A DNA stretch of 64,000 nucleotides from Mycoplasma sp. CAG:877 (GTDB lineage: Bacteria > Bacillota_I > Bacilli_A > RF39 > UBA660): positions 72,475 through 136,474 of the forward strand of contig HF992499.1 in the NCBI GenBank assembly GCA_000433455.1. Direction: 5' to 3'. The notes beneath the pieces were generated by a model. That model searched no databases. It was not told the DNA's origin and saw only the letters and a list, made by a program, of their open reading frames with translations. The first letter of the stretch is position 1; every line of letters begins with the position of its first letter. The position numbers were made by a program, and so were the translations under genes. Of the stretch, positions 8,973 through 27,100 are shown one piece after another.

Positions 8973-10877
8973 ATGTTTTTTAAAAAGATTGATGAACGTA
9001 TAAAAATAACTTTTTTAGTAATGTTAATTCTCTTTATATTTATAATTTTAAGAGTCTTCTACATCCAAGTATTTGACTATAAAAAATTAAATGAGTATGC
9101 TTCAGACCTATGGAGTAGGGACTTACCAATTGAGGCAAATCGAGGACTCATTCTTGATCGCAATGGAGTAGTCCTAGCCGACAATCTCACTACAACATCT
9201 CTTGTCTTAATACCAAATCAAATTAAAGAAAAAGAAAAGGCAACCGAAGAACTTGCTAAAATATTAAATGTTTCTTATGATGAAATGCAAAAACACGTCT
9301 ATAAAAAAACTTCTATTGAAAGAGTCCACCCAGAAGGTAGAAGACTTTCCTATGATATAGCCGAAAAAATATCCAATCTAAAACTAGACGGAGTTTATCT
9401 AGTTAAAGAAGCAAAAAGATATTACCCTTATGGTAATTTACTATCACATTCATTAGGGTATGTTGGAATAGATAATCAAGGTTTATCAGGTTTAGAATTA
9501 GAGTATGATAAATATCTAACTGGCAAGTCAGGTGCTATTAAATACTTTTCTGATGCTAAAGGTAACAAATTAAATGTTTCGGATGTTTATGTTGAACCCC
9601 AAGATGGTATGAATCTTTATTTAACAATTGATATAAATATTCAAAAGTCTATTGAAAGAGAACTAGATAATATTGTCGATATGTTTTCTCCTGATATGGC
9701 TCTAGCCGTTGTCATGAACCCTAAGACTGGCGAAATCCTAGGTATGGGATCAAGACCAGATTATAATCCCAATACTTATCAAAAGTACTCTCAAGACGTT
9801 CTAAGTAGAAACCTCCCAGTTTGGTCCTCCTATGAACCAGGATCAACTTTCAAAATTATCACTATGGCAACTTCCGTAGAAGAAAAGATTATTGATATCG
9901 AAAATGATCATTTCTATGACTCAGGTAGTGTAAATGTAGATGGTTCAGTCTTAAAATGTTGGAAAGCCGGAGGCCATGGTGATCAAACCTTCCTTCAAGT
10001 ACTCCAAAATTCTTGTAACCCAGGTTTCGTAAAACTGGGTCAAATGCTGGGTAAAGAAAGACTATTTTCCTATATTAAAAAATTTGGCTTTGGAGAAAAA
10101 ACAGGAGTTGATTTAAATGGTGAAGGTCAAGGTATCTTATTTCCTTTAGAAAAAGTAGGTAATGTTGAATTATCAACTACTGCCTTTGGTCAAGGAGTAA
10201 GTGTCACACCTATTCAACAAGTAACCGCCGTATCTGCTGTCGTTAATGGTGGTTATCTCTATAAACCATATATCGTAAAAAGTATTGCTGAAAAAGAAAC
10301 AAATACCATTATCCAAGAAACTTCAAAAACACTAGTTAGAAAAGTAATATCTAGTGAAACTTCTACTATTATGCGTCACGCTCTAGAAAGTGTTGTTGCT
10401 AAAGGAGGAGGAAAAGCCGCCTATATTGAAGGCTATCGTATTGGTGGTAAAACCGGTACCGCCCAAAAAGTAAAAGATGGTAGATACATGGTCGGAAACT
10501 ATATAATGTCTTTTATGTCTATTGTCCCTTCAAATGATCCAGAAGCAGTCTTCTATCTAGCAATTGACAATCCTAAAAATACAGCACTCTTATCAAGTTA
10601 TACAACAACCCCAATCGCCAGAAGAGTTCTACTAGATATAATTGATGCTCTAGATATAAAACCACAAGAAGAGGGTATGGAAAAAGATTTGGAATGGACC
10701 GATAAAATAATGTATCAAGTACCAAATGTCATTGGAAAAAGTGTCAAAGAAGCAAAAAAACTATTATCAAACTTTACAATAGAATATAGCGGTACTGGAG
10801 AAACAGTAATTTCCCAGTCACCTGCTGCCAATACAAAACTAGAAGATAGAGGTACAGTAAGACTTTTATTAGAATAA
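8973..10877 (+). CDS. class B penicillin-binding protein (SpoVD/PBP2B/FtsI-like) with one C-terminal PASTA domain
   Basis: N-terminal TM segment. Transpeptidase motifs STFK, SCN and KTGT. C-terminal PASTA-like VPNVIGKSVKEAKKLL...GTVRLLLE. The single PASTA domain and ~635 aa resemble SpoVD. Confidence 0.9.
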   Translation: MFFKKIDERIKITFLVMLILFIFIILRVFYIQVFDYKKLNEYASDLWSRDLPIEANRGLILDRNGVVLADNLTTTSLVLIPNQIKEKEKATEELAKILNVSYDEMQKHVYKKTSIERVHPEGRRLSYDIAEKISNLKLDGVYLVKEAKRYYPYGNLLSHSLGYVGIDNQGLSGLELEYDKYLTGKSGAIKYFSDAKGNKLNVSDVYVEPQDGMNLYLTIDINIQKSIERELDNIVDMFSPDMALAVVMNPKTGEILGMGSRPDYNPNTYQKYSQDVLSRNLPVWSSYEPGSTFKIITMATSVEEKIIDIENDHFYDSGSVNVDGSVLKCWKAGGHGDQTFLQVLQNSCNPGFVKLGQMLGKERLFSYIKKFGFGEKTGVDLNGEGQGILFPLEKVGNVELSTTAFGQGVSVTPIQQVTAVSAVVNGGYLYKPYIVKSIAEKETNTIIQETSKTLVRKVISSETSTIMRHALESVVAKGGGKAAYIEGYRIGGKTGTAQKVKDGRYMVGNYIMSFMSIVPSNDPEAVFYLAIDNPKNTALLSSYTTTPIARRVLLDIIDALDIKPQEEGMEKDLEWTDKIMYQVPNVIGKSVKEAKKLLSNFTIEYSGTGETVISQSPAANTKLEDRGTVRLLLE

Positions 10878-10918
10878 AACTCTGTGTTATAATACTTGTA
10901 GTTAAAGAGGGTGATACT

Positions 10919-11536: not shown

Positions 11537-11555
11537 AAAGGAAAAATAAAATAAT

Positions 11556-12593: not shown

Positions 12594-12606
12594 AGGAGTG
12601 GATAAA

Positions 12607-13011: not shown

Positions 13012-13060
13012 TTGCAAAAGTCTAAATAATATGTTAAATTATTACTGGAGGAGTGATAAA

Positions 13061-13120
13061 ATGTACAATTTTGCTAATCATGTAATCATGTATACATTAG
13101 ATATCACACCTAACGTCTAA
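13061..13120 (+). CDS. 19-codon leader peptide ORF (MYNFANHVIMYTLDITPNV) upstream of the ABC-F gene
   Basis: GGAGG at 13047-13051 lies 9 nt before the ATG. The 3' end of the ORF is complementary to the downstream attenuator arm. Not in the ORF track because it is under 60 aa. Confidence 0.55.
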   Translation: MYNFANHVIMYTLDITPNV

Positions 13121-13133
13121 ATAAAAAAATAAT

Positions 13134-13213
13134 AGATGTAGGTGTGAAGTTTTCGTCGTGCCTACATCTGTACATGAAAGGACTATACAGATGTATAGTT
13201 CTTTTATTTTTTT
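13134..13213 (+). promoter_or_regulatory. transcription attenuator: mutually exclusive antiterminator and terminator hairpins
   Basis: agatgtagg (13134-42) pairs with cctacatct (13161-69). tacatctgta (13163-72) pairs with tacagatgta (13186-95), followed by tagttcttttattttttt. The two helices share 13163-69. cacacct (13105-11, inside the leader ORF) can pair with aggtgtg (13140-46). Confidence 0.6.
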
Positions 13214-13258
13214 GATTATGGTGCGATTTATAAATACTATAATTAAGGATGTGATTAT

Positions 13259-14860: not shown

Positions 14861-14861
14861 T

Positions 14862-15374
14862 ATGAAAGAAATAATTTATAATACTGATAATTTAAAAGAA
14901 AGTGAAATGACAAGAACTGTTACTAGAGCTAAAGTAATCTTAGTAAATTCAAAAGATGAAATCTTACTAGCTAATGGTTCAAATACTTATTTTTTAATAG
15001 GTGGACATGTTGAAGATAATGAATCTCTAGAAGACTGTCTAATAAGAGAAGTAAAAGAAGAAACAGGAATCAACCTACCAAGAGAAGAAAGAATACCTGT
15101 ACTTAATATTAAATATTTATGTAAAGATTATCCAACATCTGGAGAAAACACTTTATACATTGCTACATATTTTTATACTAAGTGTGATTTAAAACCAGAC
15201 TTAAGTTCCATAAATTTAACTGAAGATGAAAAAAAGGGTGGCTTCCATCTAGAATATATTCCTAAAAAAGATATCATCAAAACTCTAGAAGATTGCCTAC
15301 CAGTATGTACTAATGAAAAGATTGTTATTGACACTCTAGAAGCTATTAAAGAATACTTAAAAATGACTGCATAG
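14862..15374 (+). CDS. NUDIX hydrolase
   Basis: Nudix box GGHVEDNESLEDCLIREVKEETGI. The ATG at 14862 lies just after the ABC-F stop and follows AAGGAA. Confidence 0.8.
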   Translation: MKEIIYNTDNLKESEMTRTVTRAKVILVNSKDEILLANGSNTYFLIGGHVEDNESLEDCLIREVKEETGINLPREERIPVLNIKYLCKDYPTSGENTLYIATYFYTKCDLKPDLSSINLTEDEKKGGFHLEYIPKKDIIKTLEDCLPVCTNEKIVIDTLEAIKEYLKMTA

Positions 15375-15423
15375 CTTGTAAAATATAAAAGACTTAAGTA
15401 TAATTTATACAAGGAATGATTAT

Positions 15424-15624
15424 ATGAAAACAAAAATAATACTTCAATTACTATCTATTATTTCTATGGTAATAGGCTTATTCTTCTTTTATACTTATCA
15501 AAGGTTAGAAAAGAAAGAACAATTATCAAACCAAAAAAGGATATATCAAAAGAAAGAAACAATCTGCTTTTACTTAGGCATAATACTTGAAGTAATTGGT
15601 CTAACATTACTAATGTTTATTTAA
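15424..15624 (+). CDS. small two-TM membrane protein, hypothetical
   Basis: Two hydrophobic helices flank a basic loop. RBS present, terminator hairpin downstream. No family recognised. Confidence 0.45.
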   Translation: MKTKIILQLLSIISMVIGLFFFYTYQRLEKKEQLSNQKRIYQKKETICFYLGIILEVIGLTLLMFI

Positions 15625-15717
15625 AGAGTATTTGTAAAGATACTCTTTTCTCATGAATTTAAAAAACTAATTATATTAACTTTAAAAAAAATATGATAAA
15701 CTAATTATGGTGATACT

Positions 15718-17238
15718 ATGGATGAGACAATAGGACAAAAAGGTGGTCACAATGATCAAAAAAGAAGCCTGATTATTACTAAAAAACAATTAGCAAAATT
15801 AAAAGCTTATCAAGAAGAACAAGAACTAAAAGAATTAGAGGATAAAGTAAAACGCCAGCAACTAGTAACCTTTATAAAAATAGCTCCGATAATAATAACT
15901 GGTACCGTTTTAAAAACTTTATCTGGAACAGAACAAAAAGAAGCAACAAGTCCTCTAATACTACCAACTTCATCAGAAGAAAACTATAAAAAACAATCAT
16001 TTCTTACTCAGGGTAAAGATGGCAATATAATAGAAGTAGAAATAAAGACTAGTGAACATACTAAAGAAAGAGTAAATATAAATTCTACTAACTTAGAAAA
16101 TCTACTTACTAATCACAAGCCTAAGAAAAGAAAAACAACACCTGTAGAAGTCATAGAAATAGATCAAACAAAAATTCCTATTAAAGAAACTACCAAAGAA
16201 GATACTTTTGATCTTGATAAGTTAAAAAATAAAGAAATAGTAAGTCAATATGAAGAAAAACTAAAAGAAGCAAGAAGTAGTCTAAAAGATTTAATATATG
16301 AATATAACATTATAGAGAAAGCTTATCAAAATACCAAGAACACAAAAGAACTAGAAGAACTTCTAGATAGATTAAATTCACTTATCAAAAAGATTAATGA
16401 ATTAAAAGATAAATTATCTCTAGATACTTCTGACAAATATGACTTTAACTATATCAAAGAACTAGCAAGTCTCTATATTGATTCTTTTAATAATAAAGAA
16501 ATAGTTAATGAAATAAAAGATTCAAAACTATATATTTCTATTTCAGATAAAGTATCTGAATTAAAAAAAGAAGAAGAACTATTAACTCTACGCTTAGAAG
16601 AAAAAAAGAATAATCTTCAAATTGGAGAGAGTGAAATCGATGATTTTAAAGATAGATATGATAATTATAAAGACTTTAATGATAAGTTAGAAAAATTTAG
16701 AAAAGCTCAAGATATAATTGCTAGACAAACTCTAGAAAATGTCAGAAACTGTGTAACAATTCAAGAAAGAGTAGCCGTAACTACCAGAGTTTTAAATAGA
16801 CAAGCAAGAAATCTAAGAAGAACACTAAGAAGAAGAGTTCTAATGCCCGGTCCAAGAGGAGCTAGAAGAATGACTGCTATAACAGGTGCTTATCTTAGGA
16901 CAATGCAAAACATATTAAGACCACAGCAAGTAGTAGAACATTATCAAAATGTAGAAATAACTGATTATTCTAAAGACATTGAATATAGTATTAATGAAAT
17001 AGATAAGAACCTAGCTTCTTTAAAAACAACATCCATAGAATTAAAAGATACTATTAAAATGATTGAAACTGATTATAAAGATTTTCTAGATACTAAAGAA
17101 GTAAAAGAACTATTAGCTAACCTAGAAGAAGTATATGATTCACTAAAGGAAAAGGAAGAAGATTTAATCAGAATAAAAGAAGAACAAGAGAAAAACTTAT
17201 CTCTTCAAAAGGCTGCTTATGTAAAAAGAAGAGAATAA
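15718..17238 (+). CDS. K/E-rich coiled-coil protein with an internal Arg-rich segment, hypothetical
   Basis: Long heptad-like K/E/L sequence. One hydrophobic segment (LVTFIKIAPIIITGTVL). Segment RVLNRQARNLRRTLRRRVLMPGPRGARRM. Confidence 0.6.
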   Translation: MDETIGQKGGHNDQKRSLIITKKQLAKLKAYQEEQELKELEDKVKRQQLVTFIKIAPIIITGTVLKTLSGTEQKEATSPLILPTSSEENYKKQSFLTQGKDGNIIEVEIKTSEHTKERVNINSTNLENLLTNHKPKKRKTTPVEVIEIDQTKIPIKETTKEDTFDLDKLKNKEIVSQYEEKLKEARSSLKDLIYEYNIIEKAYQNTKNTKELEELLDRLNSLIKKINELKDKLSLDTSDKYDFNYIKELASLYIDSFNNKEIVNEIKDSKLYISISDKVSELKKEEELLTLRLEEKKNNLQIGESEIDDFKDRYDNYKDFNDKLEKFRKAQDIIARQTLENVRNCVTIQERVAVTTRVLNRQARNLRRTLRRRVLMPGPRGARRMTAITGAYLRTMQNILRPQQVVEHYQNVEITDYSKDIEYSINEIDKNLASLKTTSIELKDTIKMIETDYKDFLDTKEVKELLANLEEVYDSLKEKEEDLIRIKEEQEKNLSLQKAAYVKRRE

Positions 17239-17333
17239 ATAATTAACTGTAAAATTTTGTATAAAATTGTCTATTTATTCATAATGACAAGTTGATTATG
17301 ATATAATATTGCAAGAGAAATGGAGTGACAAAG

Positions 17334-18314
17334 ATGTTACTATTAACAAAAGCTATAGTTGCTATCATGATGGGCTTTTTAATGTCTGCTGGACTAGGTC
17401 TAATTTTAGTACCATGTCTAAAAAAACTTAGAGTCGGTCAAAAAATAAGTATATTTGTAGGAGAAACACATCGAAAAAAAGAAGGTACTCCTACTATGGG
17501 AGGTCTAATATTTATACTCCCAACTATAATTGCGACAATTGCCCTAGTATTGATGGGAAAAGTACCTTACACATCTAATTTAGGAATCGTCTTACTAGTA
17601 TTTTTAGGATATGCTTGTATCGGTTTCCTAGATGATTTTTTATCGATTAGAAAAGGTAATAATGAAGGTCTAACTACTTATCAAAAACTATTTATGCAAG
17701 TCTTAATCGCAATAGGCTTTTTCTATATTTATATGCGTTCTGGTGGACAAACTTCCTGGGTAGTAGGAACACTCCATATTGATATAGAAATGGGCTGGTT
17801 ATATGGCTTATTTATATTATTTGTCTTAGTAGGAGCATCAAATGCTGTAAATATAACAGATGGTCTAGATGGTCTAGCTGGTGGCTTATCAGCAATAGCT
17901 TTTATAGCCTTCAGTTTAATATCATTAATGGTAGGCTTTGAAGATATAGGAATGTTTAGTTTAATACTTGTTGGTAGTATTGTTGGTTTCTTAATATACA
18001 ATACTTATCCTGCTAAAATATTTATGGGAGATACAGGTTCCCTTGCCCTAGGTGGAGTAATGGGTGCAATCGCAATCCTAACTCATAGAGAATTAACTCT
18101 TTTAGTAGTTGCGAGTGTCTTTGTAATAGAAACATTATCTGTAATTATTCAAACAATTTCTTATCAATTATTTCATAAGAAAATATTCTTAATGACACCT
18201 CTTCATCATCATTTTGAAAAACTAGGATGGAAAGAAACTGATATCGTAAAATTGTTCTGGGTATGTGGCTTAATATTATCAATGGCTGGAATTATATTCG
18301 GAGTATGGCTATAA
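17334..18314 (+). CDS. mraY: phospho-N-acetylmuramoyl-pentapeptide transferase
   Basis: Polytopic membrane protein with NAVNITDGLDGLA, MGDTGSLALGG and PLHHHFE motifs. GGAG at 17322-25 favours the ATG at 17334 (the tracked GTG at 17325 is possible). Confidence 0.93.
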   Translation: MLLLTKAIVAIMMGFLMSAGLGLILVPCLKKLRVGQKISIFVGETHRKKEGTPTMGGLIFILPTIIATIALVLMGKVPYTSNLGIVLLVFLGYACIGFLDDFLSIRKGNNEGLTTYQKLFMQVLIAIGFFYIYMRSGGQTSWVVGTLHIDIEMGWLYGLFILFVLVGASNAVNITDGLDGLAGGLSAIAFIAFSLISLMVGFEDIGMFSLILVGSIVGFLIYNTYPAKIFMGDTGSLALGGVMGAIAILTHRELTLLVVASVFVIETLSVIIQTISYQLFHKKIFLMTPLHHHFEKLGWKETDIVKLFWVCGLILSMAGIIFGVWL

Positions 18315-18337
18315 AGTCCAAATAGGACTTTTTTTTA
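18313..18337 (+). terminator. rho-independent terminator
   Basis: aaagtcc-aaata-ggacttt followed by tttttt. Confidence 0.6.
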
Positions 18338-18370
18338 TGCAAAAAACATATACTTTACAAGGTGATAAGT

Positions 18371-19387
18371 ATGCAAAAGAAAATAGATAAAATTCTCTTC
18401 TTCACCAGTATTATTTTATCTTTATTTGGTATTGTAATGATTTATTCTGCCTCTAGTATTTGGGCTGAGTATAAATTTAATGATGCTTTTCATTATTTAA
18501 AGTATCAAACAATATTTTTTATAGTTGGTATAATTATCATGTTAATTATTTCTAAAATAGATTATAAAAATTACTATGAAAAAGCTAATCTTATTTTATC
18601 TATTTGTCTTATTCTATTAGTACTAGTTATAATACCTGGTATTGGTAGTATTAGAAATGGTTCTAGATCCTGGTTTGGAATAGGCCCATTTGGTATTCAA
18701 CCTAGTGAAGCAGCTAAACTTGGTTTAATTATTTTTACAAGTAAATACTTATCTAAAAGCAATAAGTTTTTAAAAAGCTATAAACAAGGAGTTTTTCCTA
18801 TTCTTGGTATAACTCTTCTTATCTTTTTTCTTATAATGCTTCAACCAGATCTTGGTACTGGTGTGATTTTAGTTATGTCAATTATCTCTTTATTATTTAT
18901 TGCTGGTGTAAATATGAAGTTCTTTCTAGGTATTGGAATCCTTGGCATAATTGGTATTACTATTTTAATAATAATTGCCCCATATCGTATGGATAGAATA
19001 ACGTCTTTTATAAATCCTTGGAATGATGCCTTAGGTACTGGCTTTCAAATAATTCAAAGTCTCTATGCCATTGGTCCAGGAGGACTACTTGGTACTGGCT
19101 TTCTAAACTCCGTTCAAAAACATTTCTATCTTCCAGAACCTCAAACTGATTTTATTTTTTCTATCATAGCTGAAGAGTTCGGAGTAGCAGGAGCTTTTAT
19201 TGTAACAGGTTTATTTTCTCTAATTCTTTTGCGAGGTATAAAAATAGCCTTAAATTCTAAAGATCTATTTTCTAAATACTTATCATTTGGCATGATCTTT
19301 CAAATTATCTTTCAAACTCTCATGAACCTAATGGTTGTAATTGGCATGATCCCAGTAACAGGGGTTGTACTTCGTGGTACCATATAA
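18371..19387 (+). CDS. SEDS-family peptidoglycan polymerase (FtsW/RodA/SpoVE), 5' portion; truncated by an insertion after codon ...PVTGV (19365)
   Basis: 10-TM SEDS layout with RSWF..G.QPSE..K, QPDLGT and PE.QTDFIF motifs. Family collinearity ends at MIPVTGV, then 6 unrelated codons (VLRGTI) and a stop. The conserved LPF.SYGGSS tail is absent here and is found at 23636-23729. Confidence 0.9.
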   Translation: MQKKIDKILFFTSIILSLFGIVMIYSASSIWAEYKFNDAFHYLKYQTIFFIVGIIIMLIISKIDYKNYYEKANLILSICLILLVLVIIPGIGSIRNGSRSWFGIGPFGIQPSEAAKLGLIIFTSKYLSKSNKFLKSYKQGVFPILGITLLIFFLIMLQPDLGTGVILVMSIISLLFIAGVNMKFFLGIGILGIIGITILIIIAPYRMDRITSFINPWNDALGTGFQIIQSLYAIGPGGLLGTGFLNSVQKHFYLPEPQTDFIFSIIAEEFGVAGAFIVTGLFSLILLRGIKIALNSKDLFSKYLSFGMIFQIIFQTLMNLMVVIGMIPVTGVVLRGTI

Positions 19388-19646
19388 CTACAGACACTTT
19401 TTAGCCCTTATAATAAGAGAAAAAAATGAATTTGCTAATTTTTTATTATTTAGAAAAAAATTAAAAATATATGAAAAAAGAAAAAAATTCAAAAGAATTG
19501 CAACTTTTTTTGAGGGTTGTCTGCTCATTACAACATTCAAAATAGAATTTTAGAGTTCTATGCTATTTAGATGTAAAAAATATGTAATTATTATAATTTA
19601 TAAAACGTGAATATTCATTTAATTAAATATTAAGATTTAATAATTG

Positions 19647-19655
19647 TGATATAAT
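19647..19655 (+). promoter_or_regulatory. extended -10 promoter element (TGaTATAAT) for the YibE/F pair
   Basis: tgatataat read directly, ~20 nt upstream of the 19675 start. Confidence 0.4.
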
Positions 19656-19674
19656 ATTTTTTGGATGTGATAAA

Positions 19675-20736
19675 ATGTTTAATACAAAGAGAATAATTTT
19701 TATTGTGATATTTATAGTATCTATAATTTCTTTGATTTTTGTTTATAATGATGATTTCTTATATTCTAAGCAAATTATTAAAATAACAAAAATTGATACA
19801 ATTAGCAAAGAAGCATCTCAAAATTCATTAGGGTTAGAAGAAAAATACTATACGAGAAAGATAACTGGAATAATAACCAATGGTAAGCAAAAAGGAAAGA
19901 AAAAAAGTGTATTATATGATGAATCTTATTCATCTGTTGTTACAGACAAGTATAAAGTTAATGACAAAATAATATTAGATTCGAGTGGTATTGAATTAAA
20001 AAGAGATTTCTATCTAACTTTAATGATTGTTGTTTTTTTAAATTTACTTTATATAGTTGGTTCTTATAAAGGACTTTTATCTGTATTAAGTGTTATTTTG
20101 AATTTAGTGATTTTTTATATTGGTTTATTCTTATATTTTAAAGGTATTAATTTATTATTTTTATGTGTAATAGAAATGATTATTTTTTCTATTATTTCTT
20201 TGATATTAGCCAGTGGTTTTAACAAGAAAACATTATCGGCAATCATTTCTGTAATTATATCAACATTAGTAATGCTCATAATAATTGTGATTATTGTAAA
20301 TTTCACAGGATATAAGGGGATAAACTTTAATGAATTATCATTTCTAACTGTTCCTATTGAAGATATTATATTGCCAGAACTATTAATCGGATCTACAGGT
20401 GCAATCATGGATGTGGCTATTACAATTTCATCTTCTATATCGGAACTTATTCAAAAAGACAATAATATATCTGTTAAAAATCTGAAAAAATCTGCTAGAG
20501 AAATAGGAAAAGATATAATGAGTACGATGAGTAATGTTTTATTTTTTACTTATTTATGTTCAGGACTTCCAATTTTTGTGTTAGCGTTACGCAATGGATT
20601 TTCAATGTATAATTATATTTCAACTAATTTTACATTAGAATTAACTAGATTCTTAATTGGTAGTATTGGTATTGTTTTAACTATTCCAGTATCAGCACAT
20701 ACATCAATTAAATTGATGAAAAGAGGTGCAAAATGA
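19675..20736 (+). CDS. YibE/F-family membrane protein (long form)
   Basis: N-terminal TM, an ~100-aa extracytoplasmic segment and 6-7 TM helices. The EIGKDIMSTMSNVLFFTYL block recalls the YibE/F signature. Paired with a shorter paralog, as is usual for this family (from memory). Confidence 0.65.
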   Translation: MFNTKRIIFIVIFIVSIISLIFVYNDDFLYSKQIIKITKIDTISKEASQNSLGLEEKYYTRKITGIITNGKQKGKKKSVLYDESYSSVVTDKYKVNDKIILDSSGIELKRDFYLTLMIVVFLNLLYIVGSYKGLLSVLSVILNLVIFYIGLFLYFKGINLLFLCVIEMIIFSIISLILASGFNKKTLSAIISVIISTLVMLIIIVIIVNFTGYKGINFNELSFLTVPIEDIILPELLIGSTGAIMDVAITISSSISELIQKDNNISVKNLKKSAREIGKDIMSTMSNVLFFTYLCSGLPIFVLALRNGFSMYNYISTNFTLELTRFLIGSIGIVLTIPVSAHTSIKLMKRGAK

Positions 20737-21491
20737 ATATAATATTAATTATTTTATTATTTTTATTAATGATTTATATCGATATAAAGAGAGGAATAAA
20801 ATTATTTTTATCCATATTATTTAATTTTATTATTTTAATGATTATTTTTTACTTAATTGCTGTTGGATTAAACCCTATAATTTGTTCTTTAATAGGCTGT
20901 TTTATAATAAGTTATATAATACTATATTATGTAAACGAAAGAAACGTAAAAACAGAATCTAGTTTAAAATCAGTTATTATCGTTCTAATTATATTATCTT
21001 TTCTCATATTTTTTGTAACGAAAATATCAAGAATTGCTGGTTTTGGATATGAATCGTATGAAGAGATAAATATGTTTTCTTATGATGTAAAAATAGATTT
21101 TACTAACATTGCAATTTCTATGATATTAATTAGTTTAATTGGAGCAACGGTTGATTCTTCCATAGCAATTTCATCTGCCTTATATGAAGTGTATGATAAT
21201 AATAAAAATTTATCAAAAAAAGATTTATTTTTATCAGGAATGAATATAGGGAAAGATATATTATGTACGACAAATAACACCTTAATGTTTGCTTTTTTAG
21301 GTGAATTTATGACATTATTGATTTGGTTTTATAAAGGAAATTATTCGTTTTTAGAAATTGTAAATGCAAAGACTTTTGTTTCAGAAATGATTAAAATATT
21401 ATTTAGTGCAGTAGGCTGTATTATAGTTATACCTATAACTGCATATATTACAACGGAAACACTAAAAAAAGATGGCAAAACTAATTTCTAA
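20733..21491 (+). CDS. YibE/F-family membrane protein (short form)
   Basis: ATGA overlap with the upstream gene. Polytopic. NIGKDILCTTNNTLMFAFLGE is paralogous to the motif in the upstream protein. Confidence 0.65.
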   Translation: MNIILIILLFLLMIYIDIKRGIKLFLSILFNFIILMIIFYLIAVGLNPIICSLIGCFIISYIILYYVNERNVKTESSLKSVIIVLIILSFLIFFVTKISRIAGFGYESYEEINMFSYDVKIDFTNIAISMILISLIGATVDSSIAISSALYEVYDNNKNLSKKDLFLSGMNIGKDILCTTNNTLMFAFLGEFMTLLIWFYKGNYSFLEIVNAKTFVSEMIKILFSAVGCIIVIPITAYITTETLKKDGKTNF

Positions 21492-21663
21492 AAACATAGT
21501 TTTAGGATCATTTATGGGAATATTTCTAGGATTCTTTTTACCAGCGTGTGATTGTGCTGTTGGCTCTGTCTCTAAAATGAATATCTAGAAAAAAGCATCT
21601 CTTAACGTAGAAATTTCTTTTATCCTTGCTTCTCCAATAATAAATCTTGCTGTTTATTTTTAA
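21472..21663 (+). pseudogene. remnant of a predicted permease (ArsP_1/DUF318-like) with an in-frame stop
   Basis: MAKLISKNIVLGSFMGIFLGFFLPACDCAVGSVSKMNI*KKASLNVEISFILASPIINLAVYF* resembles the FL.P.C.C...P ... AFL.A.P..NP core of that permease family. Only ~60 codons remain. Confidence 0.45.
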
Positions 21664-21734
21664 ATAAAATGTCTAATTTTGTTTTTAATTCATTAAATAA
21701 ATAAGATTGACATAATTTTATACTAGGTGATGAT

Positions 21735-21890
21735 ATGGAGAAAATTTATAATAATAAAAAAGTTAAATTTTCATTTTTTTTTGATAAAAATGGTAAATCT
21801 TTAAAAGATATTTTAGAAAAATGTTATCGTGAAGAAATTAGAAATGAACAAATACTTACTGGAGGTGCTAATAGTGATTTTCCAAAATAG
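21735..21890 (+). CDS. 51-codon ORF upstream of the recombinase, hypothetical
   Basis: AGGTGA RBS 5 nt upstream of the ATG. MEKIYNNKKVKFSFFFDKNGKSLKDILEKCYREEIRNEQILTGGANSDFPK. No family recognised. Confidence 0.3.
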   Translation: MEKIYNNKKVKFSFFFDKNGKSLKDILEKCYREEIRNEQILTGGANSDFPK

Positions 21891-21950
21891 AAAAAAGATT
21901 CTATTATTACAGAAAAGAGACTTAAAATTTATTAAAGGGTGGCAAATTAG

Positions 21951-23564
21951 GTGTTAATTGATAATAAAATTTATAATTGTGCTGAATATTTAAGACTATC
22001 TAAAGATGATTTAGGTAAAAATGATGAATCATCATCTATTCAAAGTCAAAGATTGATAATTGAAGGTTTTGCTAAACATAATAATTTAAAAATAGTTGAA
22101 GAATATGTCGACGATGGTTATTCTGGTGGTAATTTTGATAGACCTGCATTTATTAGAATGATTGAAGACATCGAATCTGGAAAAATAAATTGTGTTATAA
22201 CAAAAGATTTATCTAGGCTTGGACGAGAAATGTATAAAACTGGAAATTATATTGAAGAATATTTTTTAGAACATGACGTTAGATATATTGCTATCAATGA
22301 TTCTTATGACTCTAATATTGGAGATTCTATGCTTGGTATAAGATTAGGTGTCAATGATTTGTATCTAAGAGATATATCAAAAAAGGTACGTTCATCATTT
22401 AGGGTAAAACAAGAGCGTGGTGAGTATATAGGAAGTTTTCCATGTTATGGTTATATTAAGAACCCAGAAGATAAACATAAATTAATTGTTGATCCTGTGG
22501 CGTCTAAAGTTATTAAATTGATATATCAACTATGTTTGGAAGGATTTGGAATTACTAGAATATGCCAAAAACTAACAAATGAAAAAATACCTATTCCTAT
22601 TGTTTATAAAAAAGAACCAAGAGGACTACTAGTAACTGAAAACGATGGATTTGGTATTTGGAAAAATTCAACGGTTAGAAATATATTAAAGAGTCAAATG
22701 TATATTGGAAACATGGTTCAACATACACATGAAAAGATTAGTTATAATCAAAAAAAATGTAAGCATTTAAAGGAAAATGATTTTATAATAGTTGAACATA
22801 CACATGAACCTATTATTAGTATAGAAGATTTTAATAAAGTACAAGAAATTTTGAAACAAAAAAGCCATACTCCAGTAGATAGAAACTTTGACAGATTTTT
22901 ATTATCAGGGATAATGTTTTGTGGCAAATGTGGGCATACTTTAGGTGTTGGAGTAAAAAAAACAAAATCAGTTCCATCACAATATACACATTGTAATCAT
23001 TATACAAGAAAAGGTGTGAAAAGTGGATGTACTCCTAATAGACTTAATTATTACTTATTAGAAAAAGATATAATTAATTTTTTAAACGAAGTTGGCGAAG
23101 AATTTATCAAGTATTATGATATTAGGAATTTGGTTGAAGACTCTGTATATGTTTATAATCGTGATATAGATGATATGAAAAAAGAGTTAAGTCAATTGGA
23201 AAAAGATATAAATAAAAAAATAAATATTATTTCTAATTTGTATAATGATAAAATTGATGGAGTTATTTCTGTTGATGTATACAAAAGTTTAGCAGATAAC
23301 CATGAGAGAGAATTAAAAAAACTAAAGAAAAAACAAGAAGGATTAGAAAATAAATTAAAGATATTTTCTATTAAATCAAAAGAAAAAGAATTTACTAAAT
23401 GTCGTGAATCAGTAGAAAATTTTATGAAATTAAAAGTACCTTCTAGGAGTACAATAAAAAATTTGATTAGTAAAATTGTTATATATGATGAAGGCAATGA
23501 AAAAGAGGTTAAGGTGTTTTTTAGATTTAAAGAACTTACCAATATATCAAGTAAGTTAGTTTAA
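21951..23564 (+). CDS. large serine recombinase (resolvase/invertase N-domain, recombinase and zinc-ribbon domains, coiled coil)
   Basis: N-terminal AEYLRLSKDD (catalytic Ser context), VDDGYSGGNFDRPAF, KDLSRLGRE, zinc ribbon CGKCGH...C..Y, a long coiled coil and a DUF4368-like tail KIVIYDEGNEKEVKVFFRF. GTG start with an AAGGGTGG RBS. Confidence 0.92.
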   Translation: MLIDNKIYNCAEYLRLSKDDLGKNDESSSIQSQRLIIEGFAKHNNLKIVEEYVDDGYSGGNFDRPAFIRMIEDIESGKINCVITKDLSRLGREMYKTGNYIEEYFLEHDVRYIAINDSYDSNIGDSMLGIRLGVNDLYLRDISKKVRSSFRVKQERGEYIGSFPCYGYIKNPEDKHKLIVDPVASKVIKLIYQLCLEGFGITRICQKLTNEKIPIPIVYKKEPRGLLVTENDGFGIWKNSTVRNILKSQMYIGNMVQHTHEKISYNQKKCKHLKENDFIIVEHTHEPIISIEDFNKVQEILKQKSHTPVDRNFDRFLLSGIMFCGKCGHTLGVGVKKTKSVPSQYTHCNHYTRKGVKSGCTPNRLNYYLLEKDIINFLNEVGEEFIKYYDIRNLVEDSVYVYNRDIDDMKKELSQLEKDINKKINIISNLYNDKIDGVISVDVYKSLADNHERELKKLKKKQEGLENKLKIFSIKSKEKEFTKCRESVENFMKLKVPSRSTIKNLISKIVIYDEGNEKEVKVFFRFKELTNISSKLV

Positions 23565-23630
23565 TATTTAAAAAGTTATCACAATAGTATGGGCAACCTT
23601 TTATTTTTTTATAACTTTAAAATGGCAAAG

Positions 23631-23729
23631 GGTGTAACACTACCTTTCTTATCTTATGGAGGTAGTAGTCTTCTAATAACTTGTGCTTCTATTGGTATAC
23701 TTCTAAATATTAGTAAATATCAAATGTAG
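23631..23729 (+). pseudogene. 3' fragment of the split SEDS gene (..[32 protein letters not shown])
   Basis: Encodes the near-invariant SEDS C-terminal motif LPF.SYGGSS plus the last TM helix. Same strand as the 5' part. No RBS of its own. Confidence 0.85.
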
Positions 23730-23813
23730 TTTTATTATTTATGTAAAAATTATTCTTGAAGGTTCCAAAATCATAATATATACTAACATTATGAAGTAAA
23801 AAGGAGAGTGCAC

Positions 23814-24035
23814 ATGTCAGAACAAAATTATGAATTTCATAAAAATAATGAAAAAGACACAATCTACTGGGTTAATAAAACAGATAGTATAGGAGAACAT
23901 TTATTTACGTTTGATAAGAAAAAAATCTATAATTTATTTAAAGACTATCCACATGAGCTAACTAAAGAAGAAAAAGAAATATTTGACAAAGAAAACCCTT
24001 ATTGGAAAAATTTTTTTGAAGATAGAAATAAATAA
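23814..24035 (+). CDS. small hypothetical protein (73 aa)
   Basis: AAGGAG RBS 7 nt before the ATG at 23814. Terminator downstream. No motif recognised. Confidence 0.55.
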   Translation: MSEQNYEFHKNNEKDTIYWVNKTDSIGEHLFTFDKKKIYNLFKDYPHELTKEEKEIFDKENPYWKNFFEDRNK

Positions 24036-24036
24036 A

Positions 24037-24070
24037 ATACAGTAATCAAAAATAACTGTATTTTTCTTTT
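24037..24070 (+). terminator. rho-independent terminator
   Basis: atacagt-(11 nt)-actgtat followed by ttttctttt. Confidence 0.6.
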
Positions 24071-24153
24071 CTACTGATAGTTATTTATCTAAATTTATGA
24101 TATGATAATTATAAAGATTAAATAAGTATAAAGAAATTGGAAGTGTGTTAGTT

Positions 24154-27100
24154 ATGGCAGAAATTATGACTATAGAAGAGTTTAGAGAATTAAAAAGAAA
24201 CCAACAAGAAATCATAGAAAAATTAGACTCTAATGAAAATAAAACTGAAGACGATGAAGATGAACTTCTAACCACTTATCTTGCCAACCAAGACTATCTT
24301 ATAAGTCATGATTTAAGTCTTATTCCAAAAGGAGAGTGGAAAGGCTTTTCCTTTGCCTCTTCTAAATACCATCGAGTAGACTTATCAAAAACCAGAGCTA
24401 ATATTGATTTTTCAATTCTTGATTATAGAGAATATATAAATTATAAAAGCTGTACTATAAGTAATCTTGATCAAATAAATCGTATTATAGACTCTAATAA
24501 TTTTGATCGAGAAGTCATCTCTCAATATAAAGAGTTTTTTCTTTCCGATAACTTTGACGAAAATACAAAGCAAAAAATTTATGAGCGTTCACTAACTATC
24601 GAGGATTTATTTTCTTTTTCTGAAGAACAAATCAATGAAATAGGGGATAAAAAAGTTCTAAACTGTTTCAACACCAAGACAAGATATATGATTAGAGAAC
24701 TAGGTCTAGAAAAAACTCTTCAATTATACTATGTATCAAAAGAGGATTATCAAGAAGTATATGATATTATAAATGGATATTATTATGCCTATAAGCCATA
24801 TTATGAAGAAAATTCACACCTTACAGAAGAACTAAAAAATACTCCAGTTCAAGGCATAAAGACAAAAATTTACTCAATTATACGTGAACTTATAATAGAA
24901 ATGCCACAAATTAAAATAGAACTTTCTAAACTTACTCCAGGTTTTATTGAAAGCAATAAAGATATACTATTATTAGATACAGAAGTACCTACTGAACTAA
25001 GAGAAAAATATTATGCCAAGAGTCTAACTTTAGATGATCTTCTAAATAGCCTGAACCTTTTCAAAAATGTACCTATCGCAAGCTTCATAGATACCCAAGA
25101 AGAAGACAACAACGCTCTAAAAAACATTGTTCAAATCCTAGGACCTGGTGTATTTAAAATACTTGTTGAGTCCTATCCAAAACAATTAAACTATATTATA
25201 AAAGGTAAATTAGGTAATTCATTTTATACTTTAATAAAAGAAACTATGTTTTCAGTAATAAATAAAACCACTGATACTAATGAAGGGCTAAAAGAGTACT
25301 TAACGACATTCTTTAGAATACATAATACCATTAGAAATAAAGAACAATTATTATTATATGAACCAGGGTTATTTGAATTAGATTCATCCCAGAAAACAGT
25401 TATAAAACAACTATCTTTAAAAAATATGCAAAGATTTGAAAGAGAAACAGGCTTTTTTTCACACTACACCTCAGGAGTTACTAATGCTTTACCTATGTTA
25501 CATACTTTTTCGATTTATCTACCAAACAGAGATTATATGAATTTCTCTGACAAAGAAAAGAAAGAGTTAACATATGAAGAATTTCAAGATAAATTAGCTG
25601 AATTAATTGGGCATATTATAAGGACAAGACCTTATGGTATTAAAGTTGACTTTGACTGGATGGAAGGAGAATTTAGAGAAAAGCATCCAGAAATATTCAT
25701 GGATAAAAATGCCCCAGACCAGTTAAAAAAAGCTTTTTATGAATACAAAATTACTCCTCAGTTGATAAAAGACAATCCAGACTATATTCCATATTTACTT
25801 GATAAAAACTTAGCTAATACTATAAATACAGTTATAAGTTTAGAAACAACTAAAGATCAAGAAGAAACATATTTTAATCGTTATGATCTTCTAAACTTCA
25901 TAGAAGAATATTCTAAAAGATATGGAAATGAAAAAACACTACATCTTATAGAAAAATATGGCGATTTAATAGCAAATACAAAATTAACATGTAGTAATAA
26001 AGACCTTTCTGATGAAAAAGCCTTAGAAAAAGTTGTTAGAGCAGGTATTTATGAAAAAATATCTCATAAAAGTGTTAATTATATATCCTTATTAAAAGAT
26101 AAAGATTTTGTCTTAGAATACCCAGAAATATTTATCGATTTTACTACTTTAGACGGAATAAGTACTGCTGAAAAAGAAAGACTAGAAAAAGCTTTTTATA
26201 AAAAAGAACTAACCTATGAAGATATAAAGAAACATCCATCTTTAAAAGATGCCCTTAAAAATAAAGATTTACATTTTATCTTTTCTTCTTACTCTCCATC
26301 TAATTTTAGTTATTATTCTTCTAATTATTCAGATGGCGACTTAGAATTATTAAATGTATTTGGCCCTGATAAATTTTTAGAATTATGTTCTAGATATGGT
26401 AGATATATGAACAATATTAGTAAAGAGCTTCATAAACAAATAACCGTTATTAACGGAAAGTATATGAAATTTTCAGCAAGAGAAGAAGGAACTGATGGTA
26501 CACTAGATTTTGAAGATATCGCAAGAAGAATAGAAGAAATTATTGCTAGAGAATGTAAAAATGGTAATATTTTATATTCACCAGAAGATGCACCAACATT
26601 TTTAAAAGAAAAATACAGTGAATTATTTTTAAATGATGATGCACCAGAAACCTTAAAGTCTTACTTTTATGCTTCAAAAGGAAGTTCTGGTTTAACATTT
26701 AATGTTTTAAGTCAACATAAAGAATGGATACCTTATTTAAAAGACAAGTCTCTTTTAACACCATTTCTAAGAGCGACAAATTATAAAAATGAAATGACTG
26801 AATACTTTAATTTATTTGGAAATGAATTAGCAATTAAATTTGGTACCACTAAATCAGAAACAGTAGAAGAAATGATAAAATCAGGCCAAGTTATTATGAT
26901 GAAAGCTTGGTATGAAAATACTGGTTGTAAATTTATTCCAAGTTTCGTTGTAATGCAAAACTTTCCTATAGAAGAAGCAGATAAATTTTTAACATCAGCT
27001 TCTAACTGGAGTAACTTAATGCGTATCAAACGTTATGCTAAAACGCCAGAGGCAAGTGCCGCTATGTTAAAACTTGCTTACTCATTTGGTTCTTTTGATC

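What the first reader, a model, noticed from the sequence alone, without database searches (positions are those of the whole stretch)
18371..23729. SEDS (SpoVE/FtsW-family) gene split by a serine-recombinase element: candidate skin-like, excision-reconstituted gene
The SEDS ORF follows the family up to ...GMIPVTGV (19365), then reads 6 unrelated codons and a stop. The missing, near-invariant tail [30 protein letters not shown] lies on the same strand at 23636-23729, 4.27 kb downstream. Joining the halves at a GT present at both junctions (19364-65 and 23634-35, both at codon positions 1-2) gives ...[16 protein letters not shown]... in frame, 365 codons long, which is the normal SEDS length and motif spacing. 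A large serine recombinase gene (21951-23564) sits just inside the right junction. Established precedent: elements that split genes in endospore formers (skin in sigK, SPbeta in spsM, elements in spoVFB, spoVR, gerE) are excised by large serine recombinases in the terminally differentiated mother cell. SpoVE is a mother-cell cortex-synthesis SEDS protein, and a SpoVD-like single-PASTA class B PBP (8973) and mraY lie upstream. My inference is that this locus is a developmentally or conditionally reconstituted spoVE-type gene. From memory, I do not know of a SEDS gene reported as such a target.
Basis: partly seen in the sequence, partly recalled or inferred. Interest (0 to 1): 0.85.

Follow-up and report, generated by a model that had tools for sequence, protein, structure and literature searches.

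The report
Mobile element splitting a SpoVE-like gene
A 4.3-kb mobile DNA element carrying its own large serine recombinase has cut a SpoVE-like cell-wall polymerase gene in two in an uncultured gut bacterium. It belongs to a previously undescribed family of elements that always insert at this same codon, but whether its removal is timed to spore formation is not shown.

Summary
The SEDS gene (18371-19363) is cut after ...PVTG, its last 31 codons lie at 23633-23729, and joining them gives a full-length 362-aa SEDS protein. Uninterrupted alleles (96-98% identical) exist in the same species, Mycoplasma sp. CAG:877 (GTDB order RF39).

The insert is a 4,270-bp element. It carries two YibE/F membrane proteins, a conserved 51-aa ORF and a large serine recombinase (LSR). 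The joined protein is the same either way.

This is one member of a family:
- Every LSR relative at 51% identity or more with readable downstream DNA is followed by a SEDS tail. None of about 155 more distant LSRs is.
- Six of 80 related species carry a break at the same codon, five by an insertion and one by a contig end.
- Cargo ranges from this mini-element to conjugative elements, and tandem ICE + mini-element arrays occur.
- Nearly identical elements sit in hosts whose SEDS proteins are only 64-67% identical.

So this is an active mobile-element family with a new attB. Precise excision would restore the gene, but sporulation-timed, skin-like excision is untested and host sporulation is disputed. 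Some relatives carry a replacement tail and do not disrupt the gene.

The parts
8973..10877 (+). Class B PBP with one PASTA domain, SpoVD-type (context, candidate partner of the split SEDS)
   Evidence: NCBIfam TIGR02214 spoVD 726.5 bits, cut-off 688. Pfam PBP_dimer, Transpeptidase, PASTA.
17325..18314 (+). mraY (context). It is followed by the only terminator-like hairpin in the region, at 18313-18331.
   Evidence: TIGR00445 308.6 bits. Terminator scan.
18371..19363 (+). 5' part of the SpoVE-like SEDS gene (codons 1-331, ...GMIPVTG). The truncated ORF reads on into the element to the stop at 19385-19387.
   Evidence: The same break point occurs in other hosts.
19361..19362 (+). Probable crossover dinucleotide GG in attL (first two bases of the Gly codon)
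   Evidence: The BLAST blocks against empty site L002 overlap by this GG. Family-wide attL alignment. attL/attR/tandem junction comparison.
19363..23632 (+). Integrated element, 4,270 bp (one GG copy counted). GC 24.0% against 27.8% in the flanks.
   Evidence: The same element is seen in 12 contigs with an identical recombinase and on a second SEDS allele in 11 contigs.
19363..19674 (+). Left end of the element (P' arm GGTTGTACTTCGTGGTACC... and non-coding leader)
   Evidence: Conserved in L085, L086, L251, L272 and, in related form, L057.
19675..20736 (+). Cargo: YibE/F-like membrane protein 1 (353 aa)
   Evidence: PF07907 199.8 bits. 94-99% identical copies in other hosts.
20733..21491 (+). 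Cargo: YibE/F-like membrane protein 2 (252 aa)
   Evidence: PF07907 218.7 bits.
21472..21588 (+). Possible relic of a permease gene. Longer element variants carry 2 kb of extra cargo here (a 210-aa protein and a DUF3841 protein).
   Evidence: The neighbouring 63-aa ORF called in L084 has an ArsP_1 hit; its equivalence to this window ORF was inferred from position and not tested by alignment. The 6.4-kb variants are L086, L251 and L262.
21735..21890 (+). Conserved 51-aa ORF directly upstream of the recombinase. Candidate recombination directionality factor (inference only).
   Evidence: A homologue is present upstream of the LSR in all ten family members examined (51-98% LSR identity), with motif VKFxFxFxxxGKxLKDILExCY. 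No Pfam, PHROG or PDB match.
21951..23564 (+). Large serine recombinase (537 aa, GTG start)
   Evidence: Resolvase, Recombinase and Zn_ribbon_recom domains. PHROG 95 integrase, 350.8 bits. Closest solved structures are the TnpX catalytic domain and SPbeta SprA. Ser17 in the N-terminal LSK motif (presumed catalytic serine) is invariant in the 30-sequence alignment.
23565..23630 (+). Right end of the element (P arm ...TTTATAACTTTAAAATGGCAAAG)
   Evidence: Conserved across family members.
23631..23632 (+). Probable crossover dinucleotide GG in attR
23633..23729 (+). 3' fragment of the SEDS gene (third base of the Gly codon, then [31 protein letters not shown] and the stop)
   Evidence: Identical to the tail of intact alleles P0001 and P0016..

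Best explanation
The insert is an active, site-specific integrative element. It is a small, non-conjugative member of a family defined by one clade of large serine recombinases. The attachment site (attB) of that clade is the highly conserved stretch encoding ...IPVTG|VTLPF... near the 3' end of the SpoVE-type SEDS gene of RF39-group gut Bacilli.

**Shown**
- Integration at a GG core split the gene 31 codons before its stop. The split removes the [10 protein letters not shown] motif and the hydrophobic segment that follows it.
- The element supplies only six unrelated codons and a stop.
- Recombination of attL with attR at the GG core would rejoin the gene exactly.
- The family moves between species.
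- The mini-element can sit in tandem behind a conjugative relative at the same site.

**Inferred**
- The truncated gene is off.
- The conserved 51-aa ORF upstream of the recombinase is a plausible directionality factor.
- The tandem arrangement offers a route for co-transfer of the mini-element.
- The host tolerates the insertion because this SEDS is the SpoVE-like partner of the SpoVD-type PBP, not its vegetative division enzyme.
- Excision serves the element's own transfer first.

Coupling of excision to sporulation, as in skin, SPbeta or gin, is possible but not demonstrated. I put it at about 0.3.
For: **The split and its repair**
- Split and in-frame rejoining.
- Empty sites with the same flanks in the same species.
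- The rejoined version of the second occupied allele (P0247) is exactly the commonest intact allele, P0427, found in 55 contigs.

**A dedicated recombinase clade**
- Every relative at 51-98% identity with readable downstream DNA has a SEDS tail 70-100 bp after its stop (L084-L090, L092, L093, L250-L257, L270-L280).
- None of about 155 relatives at 43% identity or less has one, including all IMG/VR viral hits.

**The same codon in other species**
- The gene is broken at this codon in 6 of 80 species representatives, by at least four kinds of left end.

**Mobility**
- Element proteins are 93-99% identical in hosts whose SEDS proteins are 64-67% identical.
- Conjugative versions carry a relaxase and a coupling protein.
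- Tandem ICE + mini-element arrays have a P(ICE)-GG-P'(mini) junction.
- The occupied allele occurs on two SEDS backgrounds and in about 12% of the listed contigs of the species.

**SpoVE-like identity**
- The SpoVE model scores best for every targeted SEDS tested: 431-445 bits for the four target proteins and 451 for an unoccupied relative, against 400-414 for FtsW.
- A SpoVD-equivalog PBP lies upstream, and a separate PBP2X-like PBP follows rsmH-ftsL.

**No decay**
- Both gene halves are free of stops and frameshifts in all occupied loci seen.
Against: - No read-level or contig-level evidence of the excised state was obtained for this element. Two attP pattern scans of IMG/VR found nothing.
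- The one right-end-to-left-end junction found (L091) may be a tandem array and not a circle.
- No relaxase or oriT was recognised in the window's element, so mobilisation is inferred.
- The number of SEDS paralogues in the genome is unknown, so dispensability during growth is inferred from the prevalence of occupied alleles.
- The SEDS scores below the SpoVE cut-off (430.6 vs 448.8).
- No other sporulation gene was recognised in the 64-kb window or in 20 kb of extensions.
Confidence: 0.7

Rival explanations
1. Skin-like developmental switch. The element stays in the germ-line (forespore) genome. It is excised only in the terminally differentiated mother cell, where the recombinase and its small partner are switched on by sporulation sigma factors. 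This rebuilds spoVE in time for cortex synthesis.
For: - The architecture matches skin elements. The recombinase sits at the element edge, immediately upstream of and co-oriented with the 3' gene fragment, and cargo varies (skin description).
- A small conserved ORF next to the recombinase recalls GirX/GirC of gin.
- The target is SpoVE-like with a SpoVD equivalog nearby.
- From my own knowledge, B. subtilis spoVE belongs to the mother-cell sigma-E regulon. The paper listed (PMC517825) mentions spoVE but was not opened.
- One carrier host has spo0A 4.3 kb from the split gene.
- RF39 is predicted to be able to sporulate (PMC10868615).
- Both gene halves are intact in all carriers.
- A terminator-like hairpin separates mraY from the SEDS gene, so the gene may be regulated on its own.
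Against: - No expression or excision data exist.
- The promoter scan was uninformative: 39 sigma-70-like hits against 50 expected.
- In the conjugative relatives the small ORF overlaps the end of the coupling-protein gene, which suggests co-regulation with transfer.
- The family is horizontally mobile and piles up in tandem.
- Patched relatives that restore the gene constitutively suggest that excision-based repair is not the general solution.
- SpoMAG gives RF39 MAGs 0% sporulation probability (PMC12536801).
- Insertion 31 codons from the 3' end is more typical of genomic-island hot spots than of known sporulation intervening elements (own knowledge).
Confidence: 0.3
2. Plain knock-out of a gene that is dispensable or on its way out. 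In a reduced, thin-walled RF39 lineage the SpoVE-like SEDS is no longer needed. The insertion is simply tolerated, and excision, if it happens, has no role for the host.
For: - RF39-group lineages show stepwise loss of sporulation and peptidoglycan genes (PMC10868615).
- Occupied alleles are common, at about 12% of listed contigs.
- No other sporulation genes were found in 84 kb.
Against: - The gene is strongly conserved across 80 species, at 68-96% amino-acid identity with a near-invariant attB region.
- No occupied allele shows a stop or frameshift in either half.
- The shorter forms in the protein cluster are start-codon calls, not decay.
- Patched elements that preserve the reading frame point to selection for an intact gene.
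Confidence: 0.2
3. The gene still works while split. Either the truncated protein is active without its last helix, or the 46-aa tail ORF (23589-23729), which starts inside the element's right end, is translated and complements it.
For: An in-frame ORF with an ATG runs from the element's right end into the tail in several members. Gene callers called a 47-aa product in L085.
Against: - No Shine-Dalgarno sequence precedes either ATG (direct reading of the sequence returned).
- In other family members the methionine is replaced (KRTKG, KRVKG).
- The missing segment holds the [10 protein letters not shown] motif. That motif is invariant in the seven close homologues retrieved, and its coding sequence is near-invariant across 74 uninterrupted loci.
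Confidence: 0.05
4. Assembly artefact or chimeric contig.
For: The source is a 2013 metagenomic species assembly.
Against: - The identical arrangement was assembled independently in at least 12 contigs carrying the same recombinase sequence (7 distinct places shown), and in 11 more on another SEDS allele, by different assemblers.
- The same junctions occur in other species.
Confidence: 0.01

Closest known systems
gin element in gerE of Bacillus cereus ATCC 10987 (GirC recombinase + GirX RDF; PMC5595907)
   Same: A small, non-phage element that interrupts a coding sequence. It carries a large serine recombinase (about 58-62 kDa) and a very small partner protein of about 6 kDa. Excision rebuilds the gene exactly.
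   Different: - gin excision was shown to be sporulation-specific, and GirX was shown to be the RDF. Neither is shown here.
- The target, host lineage and recombinase clade differ.
- This family includes conjugative members and tandem arrays.
skin elements in sigK (SpoIVCA; B. subtilis, C. difficile and others; preprint 10.1101/2022.02.25.481979, PMC5025042)
   Same: [quoted passage not shown] Elements in different hosts share little besides the recombinase. The site is conserved across species.
   Different: - skin elements are largely vertically kept, defective prophage-like elements in proven spore formers.
- This family is demonstrably moving between hosts.
- It cuts 31 codons from the 3' end.
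- Some members carry a replacement tail.
SPbeta prophage in spsM (SprA/SprB; PMC4191935, PMC5499854)
   Same: An active mobile element that is also gene-disrupting. It has an LSR plus a small RDF. SprA is the closest full-length solved structure (73 bits).
   Different: SPbeta is a 134-kb phage (size from my own knowledge). No close viral relatives of this recombinase clade were found in IMG/VR, where the best hit is 38% identical or less.
Site-specific LSR clusters that share one conserved target gene (Durrant et al. 2022, PMC10083194)
   Same: Many divergent LSRs converge on one conserved site inside a coding sequence.
   Different: The targets highlighted there are a Mg-chelatase/ComM-like gene and a prolyl isomerase. 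No FtsW/SEDS target appears in the text or in the supplements held.
ICE/CIME accretion at a shared attachment site (streptococcal ICESt-type elements; own knowledge, not checked here)
   Same: A conjugative element and a small non-conjugative element with the same site specificity lie in tandem. This offers a route for co-mobilisation.
   Different: Those systems use tyrosine integrases at the 3' ends of genes without disrupting them. Here each partner has its own serine recombinase, and the unpatched members disrupt the gene.
TnpX/TndX transposon recombinases (Tn4451, Tn5397)
   Same: The closest solved catalytic domain is TnpX (2MHC, 89.6 bits). The GenBank record names the gene tnpX.
   Different: - TnpX/TndX-like enzymes are multi-target and usually carry DUF4368 (PMC10083194).
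- This protein has no DUF4368 hit.
- Its clade shows strict single-site use.

Membership tests
Large serine recombinase / serine integrase | N-terminal resolvase catalytic domain with a conserved serine, then a recombinase domain and a zinc-ribbon domain | tested here: met
   PF00239 75.7 bits, PF07508 74 bits, PF13408 39.2 bits. R15, L16 and S17 are invariant in a 30-sequence alignment. PHROG 95 integrase, 350.8 bits.
Large serine recombinase / serine integrase | Recombination at a short non-palindromic core with no target-site duplication beyond the 2-bp core | tested here: met
   The flanks overlap by GG only. attL, attR and the tandem junction are all consistent with a GG core.
SEDS family (FtsW/RodA/SpoVE) | Full-length match to FTSW_RODA_SPOVE, including the C-terminal LPFxSYGGSS motif | tested here: met
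   Only after joining: 378.2 bits, profile 3-354 of 356. The truncated ORF lacks the motif.
SpoVE equivalog (TIGR02615) | Score at or above the curated cut-off of 448.8 bits | tested here: not met
   430.6 bits for the joined protein. SpoVE is the best-scoring model but falls 18 bits short. FtsW (TIGR02614) scores 400.1 and passes its cut-off of 337.5. Other targeted SEDS score 431-445, and one unoccupied relative (P0095) passes at 451.3.
SpoVE (functional definition) | Mother-cell expression and a requirement for spore cortex synthesis, with vegetative division served by a separate FtsW | not testable with these tools
   Indirect evidence only. There is a SpoVD-equivalog PBP plus a separate PBP2X-like PBP after ftsL. 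The number of SEDS paralogues in the genome could not be determined.
Sporulation-specific gene-intervening elements (skin / SPbeta / gin class) | The element interrupts a coding sequence, and precise excision rebuilds an intact ORF | tested here: met
   In silico. The rejoined P0247 allele equals the natural intact allele P0427.
Sporulation-specific gene-intervening elements (skin / SPbeta / gin class) | The host is an endospore former | tested here: inconclusive
   The host is in RF39, family UBA660, genus CAG-877. RF39 is predicted capable of sporulation in PMC10868615 but given 0% probability in PMC12536801. spo0A lies next to the split gene in another carrier (L085). None was found in the 84 kb read from this genome.
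Sporulation-specific gene-intervening elements (skin / SPbeta / gin class) | Excision occurs during sporulation, in the mother cell, driven by sporulation-controlled recombinase or RDF expression | not testable with these tools
   There is no expression or read data. The promoter scan was uninformative.
Recombination directionality factor (for the 51-aa ORF) | A small protein that binds the integrase and switches it to attL x attR recombination | not testable with these tools
   Only position and co-conservation with the recombinase are available. There is no family or structure match.
Integrative conjugative element (ICE) | Carries its own relaxase, coupling protein and mating-pore genes | tested here: not met
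   The window's element has only YibE/F x2, the 51-aa ORF and the LSR. Relatives L088, L091 and L271 do carry relaxase/T4CP modules.
Integrative mobilisable / cis-mobilisable element | A non-conjugative element that shares att specificity with an ICE and is found in tandem with it, or carries an oriT | tested here: inconclusive
   Tandem ICE + mini-element arrays occur in L271, L274 and L275, and near-identical copies sit in distant hosts. oriT was not searched for, and transfer was not shown.
TnpX/TndX-like multi-target transposase LSRs | DUF4368 domain and many different insertion sites | tested here: not met
   No DUF4368 hit. A single conserved target is used across the clade.

The most novel reading that the evidence does not exclude
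The element works as a programmed or phase-variable DNA switch on a peptidoglycan polymerase. In RF39 gut Bacilli the SpoVE-type SEDS gene is kept off by the insert during growth. It is rebuilt by recombinase plus the 51-aa factor only in the mother cell, or in a subpopulation. That would make this the first cell-wall synthase gene known to be controlled by site-specific DNA excision. It would also be direct genetic evidence that these uncultured, supposedly non-sporulating relatives of the mycoplasmas make spores.
Probability: 0.3. Interest if true: 0.75.

Novelty: new member of a known kind. Interest (0 to 1): 0.52.

Why it matters
- **A new integration target.** It defines a new, well-delimited clade of large serine recombinases. 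Their natural attB is a roughly 40-bp stretch that is almost invariant across many gut Bacilli. That is useful for predicting integration sites, and possibly as an orthogonal integrase/att pair.
- **A new kind of interrupted gene.** It adds a SEDS peptidoglycan polymerase to the short list of genes known to be split by excisable elements in Bacillota.
- **A test for sporulation.** If excision proves to be tied to sporulation, it gives a simple junction-PCR or read-based marker for sporulation in an abundant uncultured human-gut lineage whose ability to sporulate is disputed.
- **A compact example of element evolution.** One site shows disruptive insertions, insertions patched with a replacement tail, tandem ICE plus satellite arrays, and decayed scars.

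Tried and rejected
1. **attP junction search.** I scanned IMG/VR with two degenerate patterns, one for the window type and one for the L091 type. Both returned nothing.
2. **L091 as an excised circle.** L091 joins an element's right end to a left end. I first took it for a circle, but downgraded it after the tandem arrays in L271, L274 and L275 showed the same kind of junction inside chromosomes.
3. **Linking spo0A to the CAG:877 genome.** I searched with the L085 Spo0A. All 120 listed hits were close relatives of that other host, and none lay on CAG:877-sized contigs.
4. **Sporulation genes near the window.** I looked through the window and 20 kb of extensions. None was found beyond the SpoVD-type PBP.
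5. **Promoter and terminator scan of the element.** It gave fewer sigma-70-like hits than shuffled sequence and no usable signal. I did not trust hand-matching of sigma-E/K consensus in 24% GC DNA.
6. **Short SEDS forms as signs of decay.** The 340-aa form is a start-codon call: the N-terminus is intact in frame. The 306- and 282-aa forms start at an internal Met and are probably the same, but their DNA was not examined.
7. **Family and structure matches for the 51-aa ORF.** Pfam, PHROGs and PDB sequence searches found nothing. Structure prediction was not attempted, because only the single window sequence would have been accepted.
8. **A second 'attB-like' hit in L063** at position 1722 is a chance match.

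Full report
**1.

- The ORF that starts at ATG 18371 (an in-frame GTG lies at 18362) follows the SEDS family to ...GMIPVTG. It then reads VVLRGTI and stops at 19385-19387.
- The missing tail, (V)[30 protein letters not shown], lies on the same strand at 23636-23729.
- Joining the two parts is in frame and gives a 362-aa protein. It matches Pfam FTSW_RODA_SPOVE from end to end (378 bits, profile 3-354 of 356).
- The recombinase gene at 21951-23564 has the three domains of a large serine recombinase.
- The upstream PBP (8973-10877) passes the NCBIfam SpoVD equivalog cut-off (726.5 vs 688). mraY is at 17325-18314.
- This is not chance or an assembly error. Intact 362-aa alleles at 96-98% identity exist.
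- Empty-site loci from the same species have the same neighbours: mraY upstream, and DUF7675, a 1,615-aa protein and EamA downstream.
- The occupied arrangement was assembled independently in at least 23 contigs from many samples.

**2. Source organism**

- Exact protein look-ups identify the window as part of a 398,243-bp scaffold of 'Mycoplasma sp. CAG:877'. In that record the truncated gene is already named 'stage V sporulation protein E' and the recombinase 'tnpX'.
- GTDB places genus CAG-877 in Bacilli, order RF39, family UBA660 (supplement of PMC10868615).

**3. Exact junction**

- BLAST of the window against empty-site locus L002 ends at 19362 and resumes at 23631. The two blocks overlap by the dinucleotide GG.
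- In all occupied loci of the family, identity to SEDS stops right after AC[N]GG.
- Three sequences settle the point:
  - attL in L272 reads ...GTTACG-GG-GGTTGTAC.
  - attR in L088 reads ...ACTAAG-GG-AGTAACAC.
  - The junction between an ICE and a mini-element in L271 reads ...ACTAAG-GG-GGTTGTAC.
- These fit a GG core. The comparison of L091 with L250 does not fit a GT core without an indel.
The element is 4,270 bp and the rejoined protein is the same under either choice.

**4. Anatomy of the element**

- A non-coding left end.
- Two YibE/F-like membrane proteins (19675-20736 and 20733-21491).
- A short ORF (21472-21588) that may be a relic of a permease gene.
- A 51-aa ORF (21735-21890).
- The recombinase.
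- A 66-bp right arm.

GC content is 24.0%, against 27.8% in the flanks. Variants of 6.4 kb with a 210-aa protein and a DUF3841 protein at the relic position occur with the identical recombinase (L251, L086, L262).

**5. It is one member of a family with a dedicated target**

- The recombinase has a continuous series of relatives from 98% down to about 50% identity.
- In every relative at 51% identity or more for which downstream DNA could be read, a SEDS tail follows 70-100 bp after the stop codon. These are L084-L090, L092, L093, L250-L257 and L270-L280.
- None of about 155 recombinases at 43% identity or less has such a tail, including all 80 IMG/VR hits.
- Among 80 GTDB species representatives that carry the orthologous SEDS gene, six break at the same codon. 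L022, L044, L052, L057 and L075 have insertions, and the L066 contig ends exactly there.
- At least four different kinds of left end occur at that codon.
- The attB region is almost invariant at non-wobble positions across the other 74 loci.

**6. The family is mobile**

- Mini-elements whose proteins are 93-99% identical sit in hosts whose SEDS proteins are only 64-67% identical, in different genomic contexts.
- Other members are conjugative or mobilisable elements. They carry a relaxase, a TraG-like coupling protein, a methyltransferase and other cargo (L088, L091).
- One member carries defence-like cargo: a NUDIX protein, a guanylate-kinase/methyltransferase fusion and a Schlafen-type helicase (L093).
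- In L271, L274 and L275 a conjugative element is followed directly by the YibE/F mini-element at the same site. L272 and L273, from the same host species, have the mini-element alone. This tandem arrangement is a plausible route for moving the mini-element. That step is inferred.
- Within the CAG-877 species the insertion occurs on at least two SEDS allelic backgrounds and in roughly 12% of the listed contigs.
- The rejoined form of one occupied allele is exactly the commonest intact allele, found in 55 contigs. Insertion into that allele, or loss from it, is therefore recent.

**7. What the target is**

- For four targeted SEDS proteins tested, the SpoVE model is the best hit (431-445 bits against 400-406 for FtsW), just under its 448.8 cut-off. 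The unoccupied relative P0095 passes at 451.
- Ten kilobases upstream of the window the genome has rsmH, ftsL and a 717-aa PBP2X-like division PBP. The SpoVD-type PBP, mraY and the SEDS gene follow further on. This is the order seen in the B. subtilis dcw cluster, where the SEDS after mraY is spoVE and ftsW lies elsewhere (own knowledge).
- A terminator-like hairpin separates mraY from the SEDS gene.
- By inference, the split gene is the SpoVD partner and not the vegetative division enzyme. That would explain why carriers are viable.
- I could not count SEDS paralogues in the genome.

**8. Does the host sporulate?**

- SpoMAG gives RF39 MAGs 0% probability. It does the same for Erysipelotrichales (PMC12536801), an order that Field et al. 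describe as containing experimentally confirmed spore formers.
- One carrier host has spo0A 4.3 kb from the split gene (L085).
- I found no further sporulation gene in the 84 kb read from the CAG:877 genome.
- My attempt to tie a spo0A gene to this genome failed.

**9. Evidence that bears on a skin-like role**

*In favour*
- The recombinase lies at the element edge, directly upstream of and co-oriented with the 3' fragment, and cargo varies between hosts. This is how skin elements are described.
- A small ORF is conserved next to the recombinase in all ten family members examined, as with GirX/GirC in gin.
- Both gene halves are free of stops and frameshifts in every carrier.

*Against*
- In the conjugative members the small ORF overlaps the end of the coupling-protein gene.
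- The elements move and stack.
- Several genomes have an intact SEDS gene followed by an element or a remnant and then an orphan second tail. These are L270 (a complete 1.49-Mb genome), L006, L007, L020, L021 and L023. Some relatives therefore bring a replacement tail and do not disrupt the gene. That pattern is typical of ordinary 3'-end integration hot spots. It also suggests that losing the gene is costly.
- No junction of the excised state was found for this element. The one right-to-left junction (L091) may be a tandem array.

**10. Conclusion**

- The best-supported reading is an active integrative element of a new SEDS-specific serine-recombinase family. It has reversibly disrupted a SpoVE-like gene.
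- Precise excision would restore the gene, and in that respect the element works like skin, SPbeta or gin.
- Membership in the class of sporulation-specific intervening elements is not established. Its defining feature, developmentally timed excision in a spore former, could not be tested.
- I found no published SEDS/spoVE target in six literature searches or in the LSR target survey of Durrant et al..
- I rate it a new member of a known kind, of moderate interest. Interest would be higher if sporulation-coupled excision is shown.

Noticed in passing
L270 (OW818670.1, 1.49-Mb contig) 6996-11740; also L006 ~7009-7101, L007 13617-13706 and 15214-15300, L020 ~12258, L021 11481-11558, L023 ~12076: An intact SEDS gene is followed by an element or a short remnant and then an orphan second copy of the SEDS tail. 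Some elements of the family apparently carry a replacement tail, so their insertion is not disruptive. They leave tail 'scars' behind, and the L023 copy is already degenerate.
   Followed up: partly
L271 2704-8614, L274, L275 (compare L272, L273): A conjugative element (T4CP, 81-aa ORF, 538-aa LSR) sits in tandem with the YibE/F mini-element at the same SEDS site. The hybrid junction is P(ICE)-GG-P'(mini). This looks like accretion that could mobilise the small element.
   Followed up: partly
L091 11640-11905 versus L250 2690-2760 and L052 4628-4859: Two copies of the same element are 99.6% identical but end differently. L250 ends in a SEDS tail (attR). L091 ends in the left end of another element type, as either an attP-like circle or a tandem junction. 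The first 5.5 kb of the L091 contig could not be fetched, so this was not resolved.
   Followed up: partly
L030 1-4875 (Candidatus Faecimonas gallistercoris): The same ICE backbone (98.6% nucleotide identity over 3.1 kb to L091, up to the end of the coupling-protein gene) is joined to an unrelated LSR (22% identity). It sits about 5 kb upstream of an intact SEDS gene. This looks like an exchange of the integrase module that changes the target.
   Followed up: no
L001 7181-7775, L002 1621-2215, L003, L005; absent from window 23730-23807: A RelB/ParE toxin-antitoxin cassette lies directly after the SEDS stop codon in empty-site relatives of the same species, but not in the window. A related relB-like stretch starts the third element type (L022), and in L020 it lies between the intact SEDS gene and an orphan tail. 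It may be a remnant of another element that used the same site.
   Followed up: partly
window 24145-29001: A 1,618-aa protein with no Pfam hit is conserved at about 1,615 aa in relatives. It is followed by a 342-aa protein with weak similarity to glutamate-5-semialdehyde dehydrogenase.
   Followed up: no
window 3621-7415: A 1,264-aa surface protein with a VWA domain and seven Cna_B repeats (adhesin-like) lies inside what remains of the dcw region.
   Followed up: no
L258 1-2627 (10 kb upstream of the window) and window 8973-19387: The dcw cluster is scattered. rsmH, ftsL and a PBP2X-like PBP are separated by about 16 kb of unrelated genes from the SpoVD-type PBP. A further 6 kb separates that PBP from mraY and the SEDS gene. 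No mur or ftsA/ftsZ genes follow.
   Followed up: no
L093 4400-9656: A 7.4-kb family member (LSR 51% identical) carries a NUDIX protein, a guanylate-kinase/methyltransferase fusion and a Schlafen-type helicase. This cargo looks like an anti-phage defence set.
   Followed up: no
window 18313-18331: The only terminator-like hairpin in 18200-24200 sits between mraY and the SEDS gene. It is followed about 10 nt later by a conserved CATATA(C/A)TT motif just upstream of the ribosome-binding site. The SEDS gene may therefore have its own promoter.
   Followed up: no
cluster of window 19675-20733: The first YibE/F protein falls in a 90%-identity cluster of 851 members. The recombinase cluster has 93 members. 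The cargo genes may therefore be much more widespread than this element.
   Followed up: no
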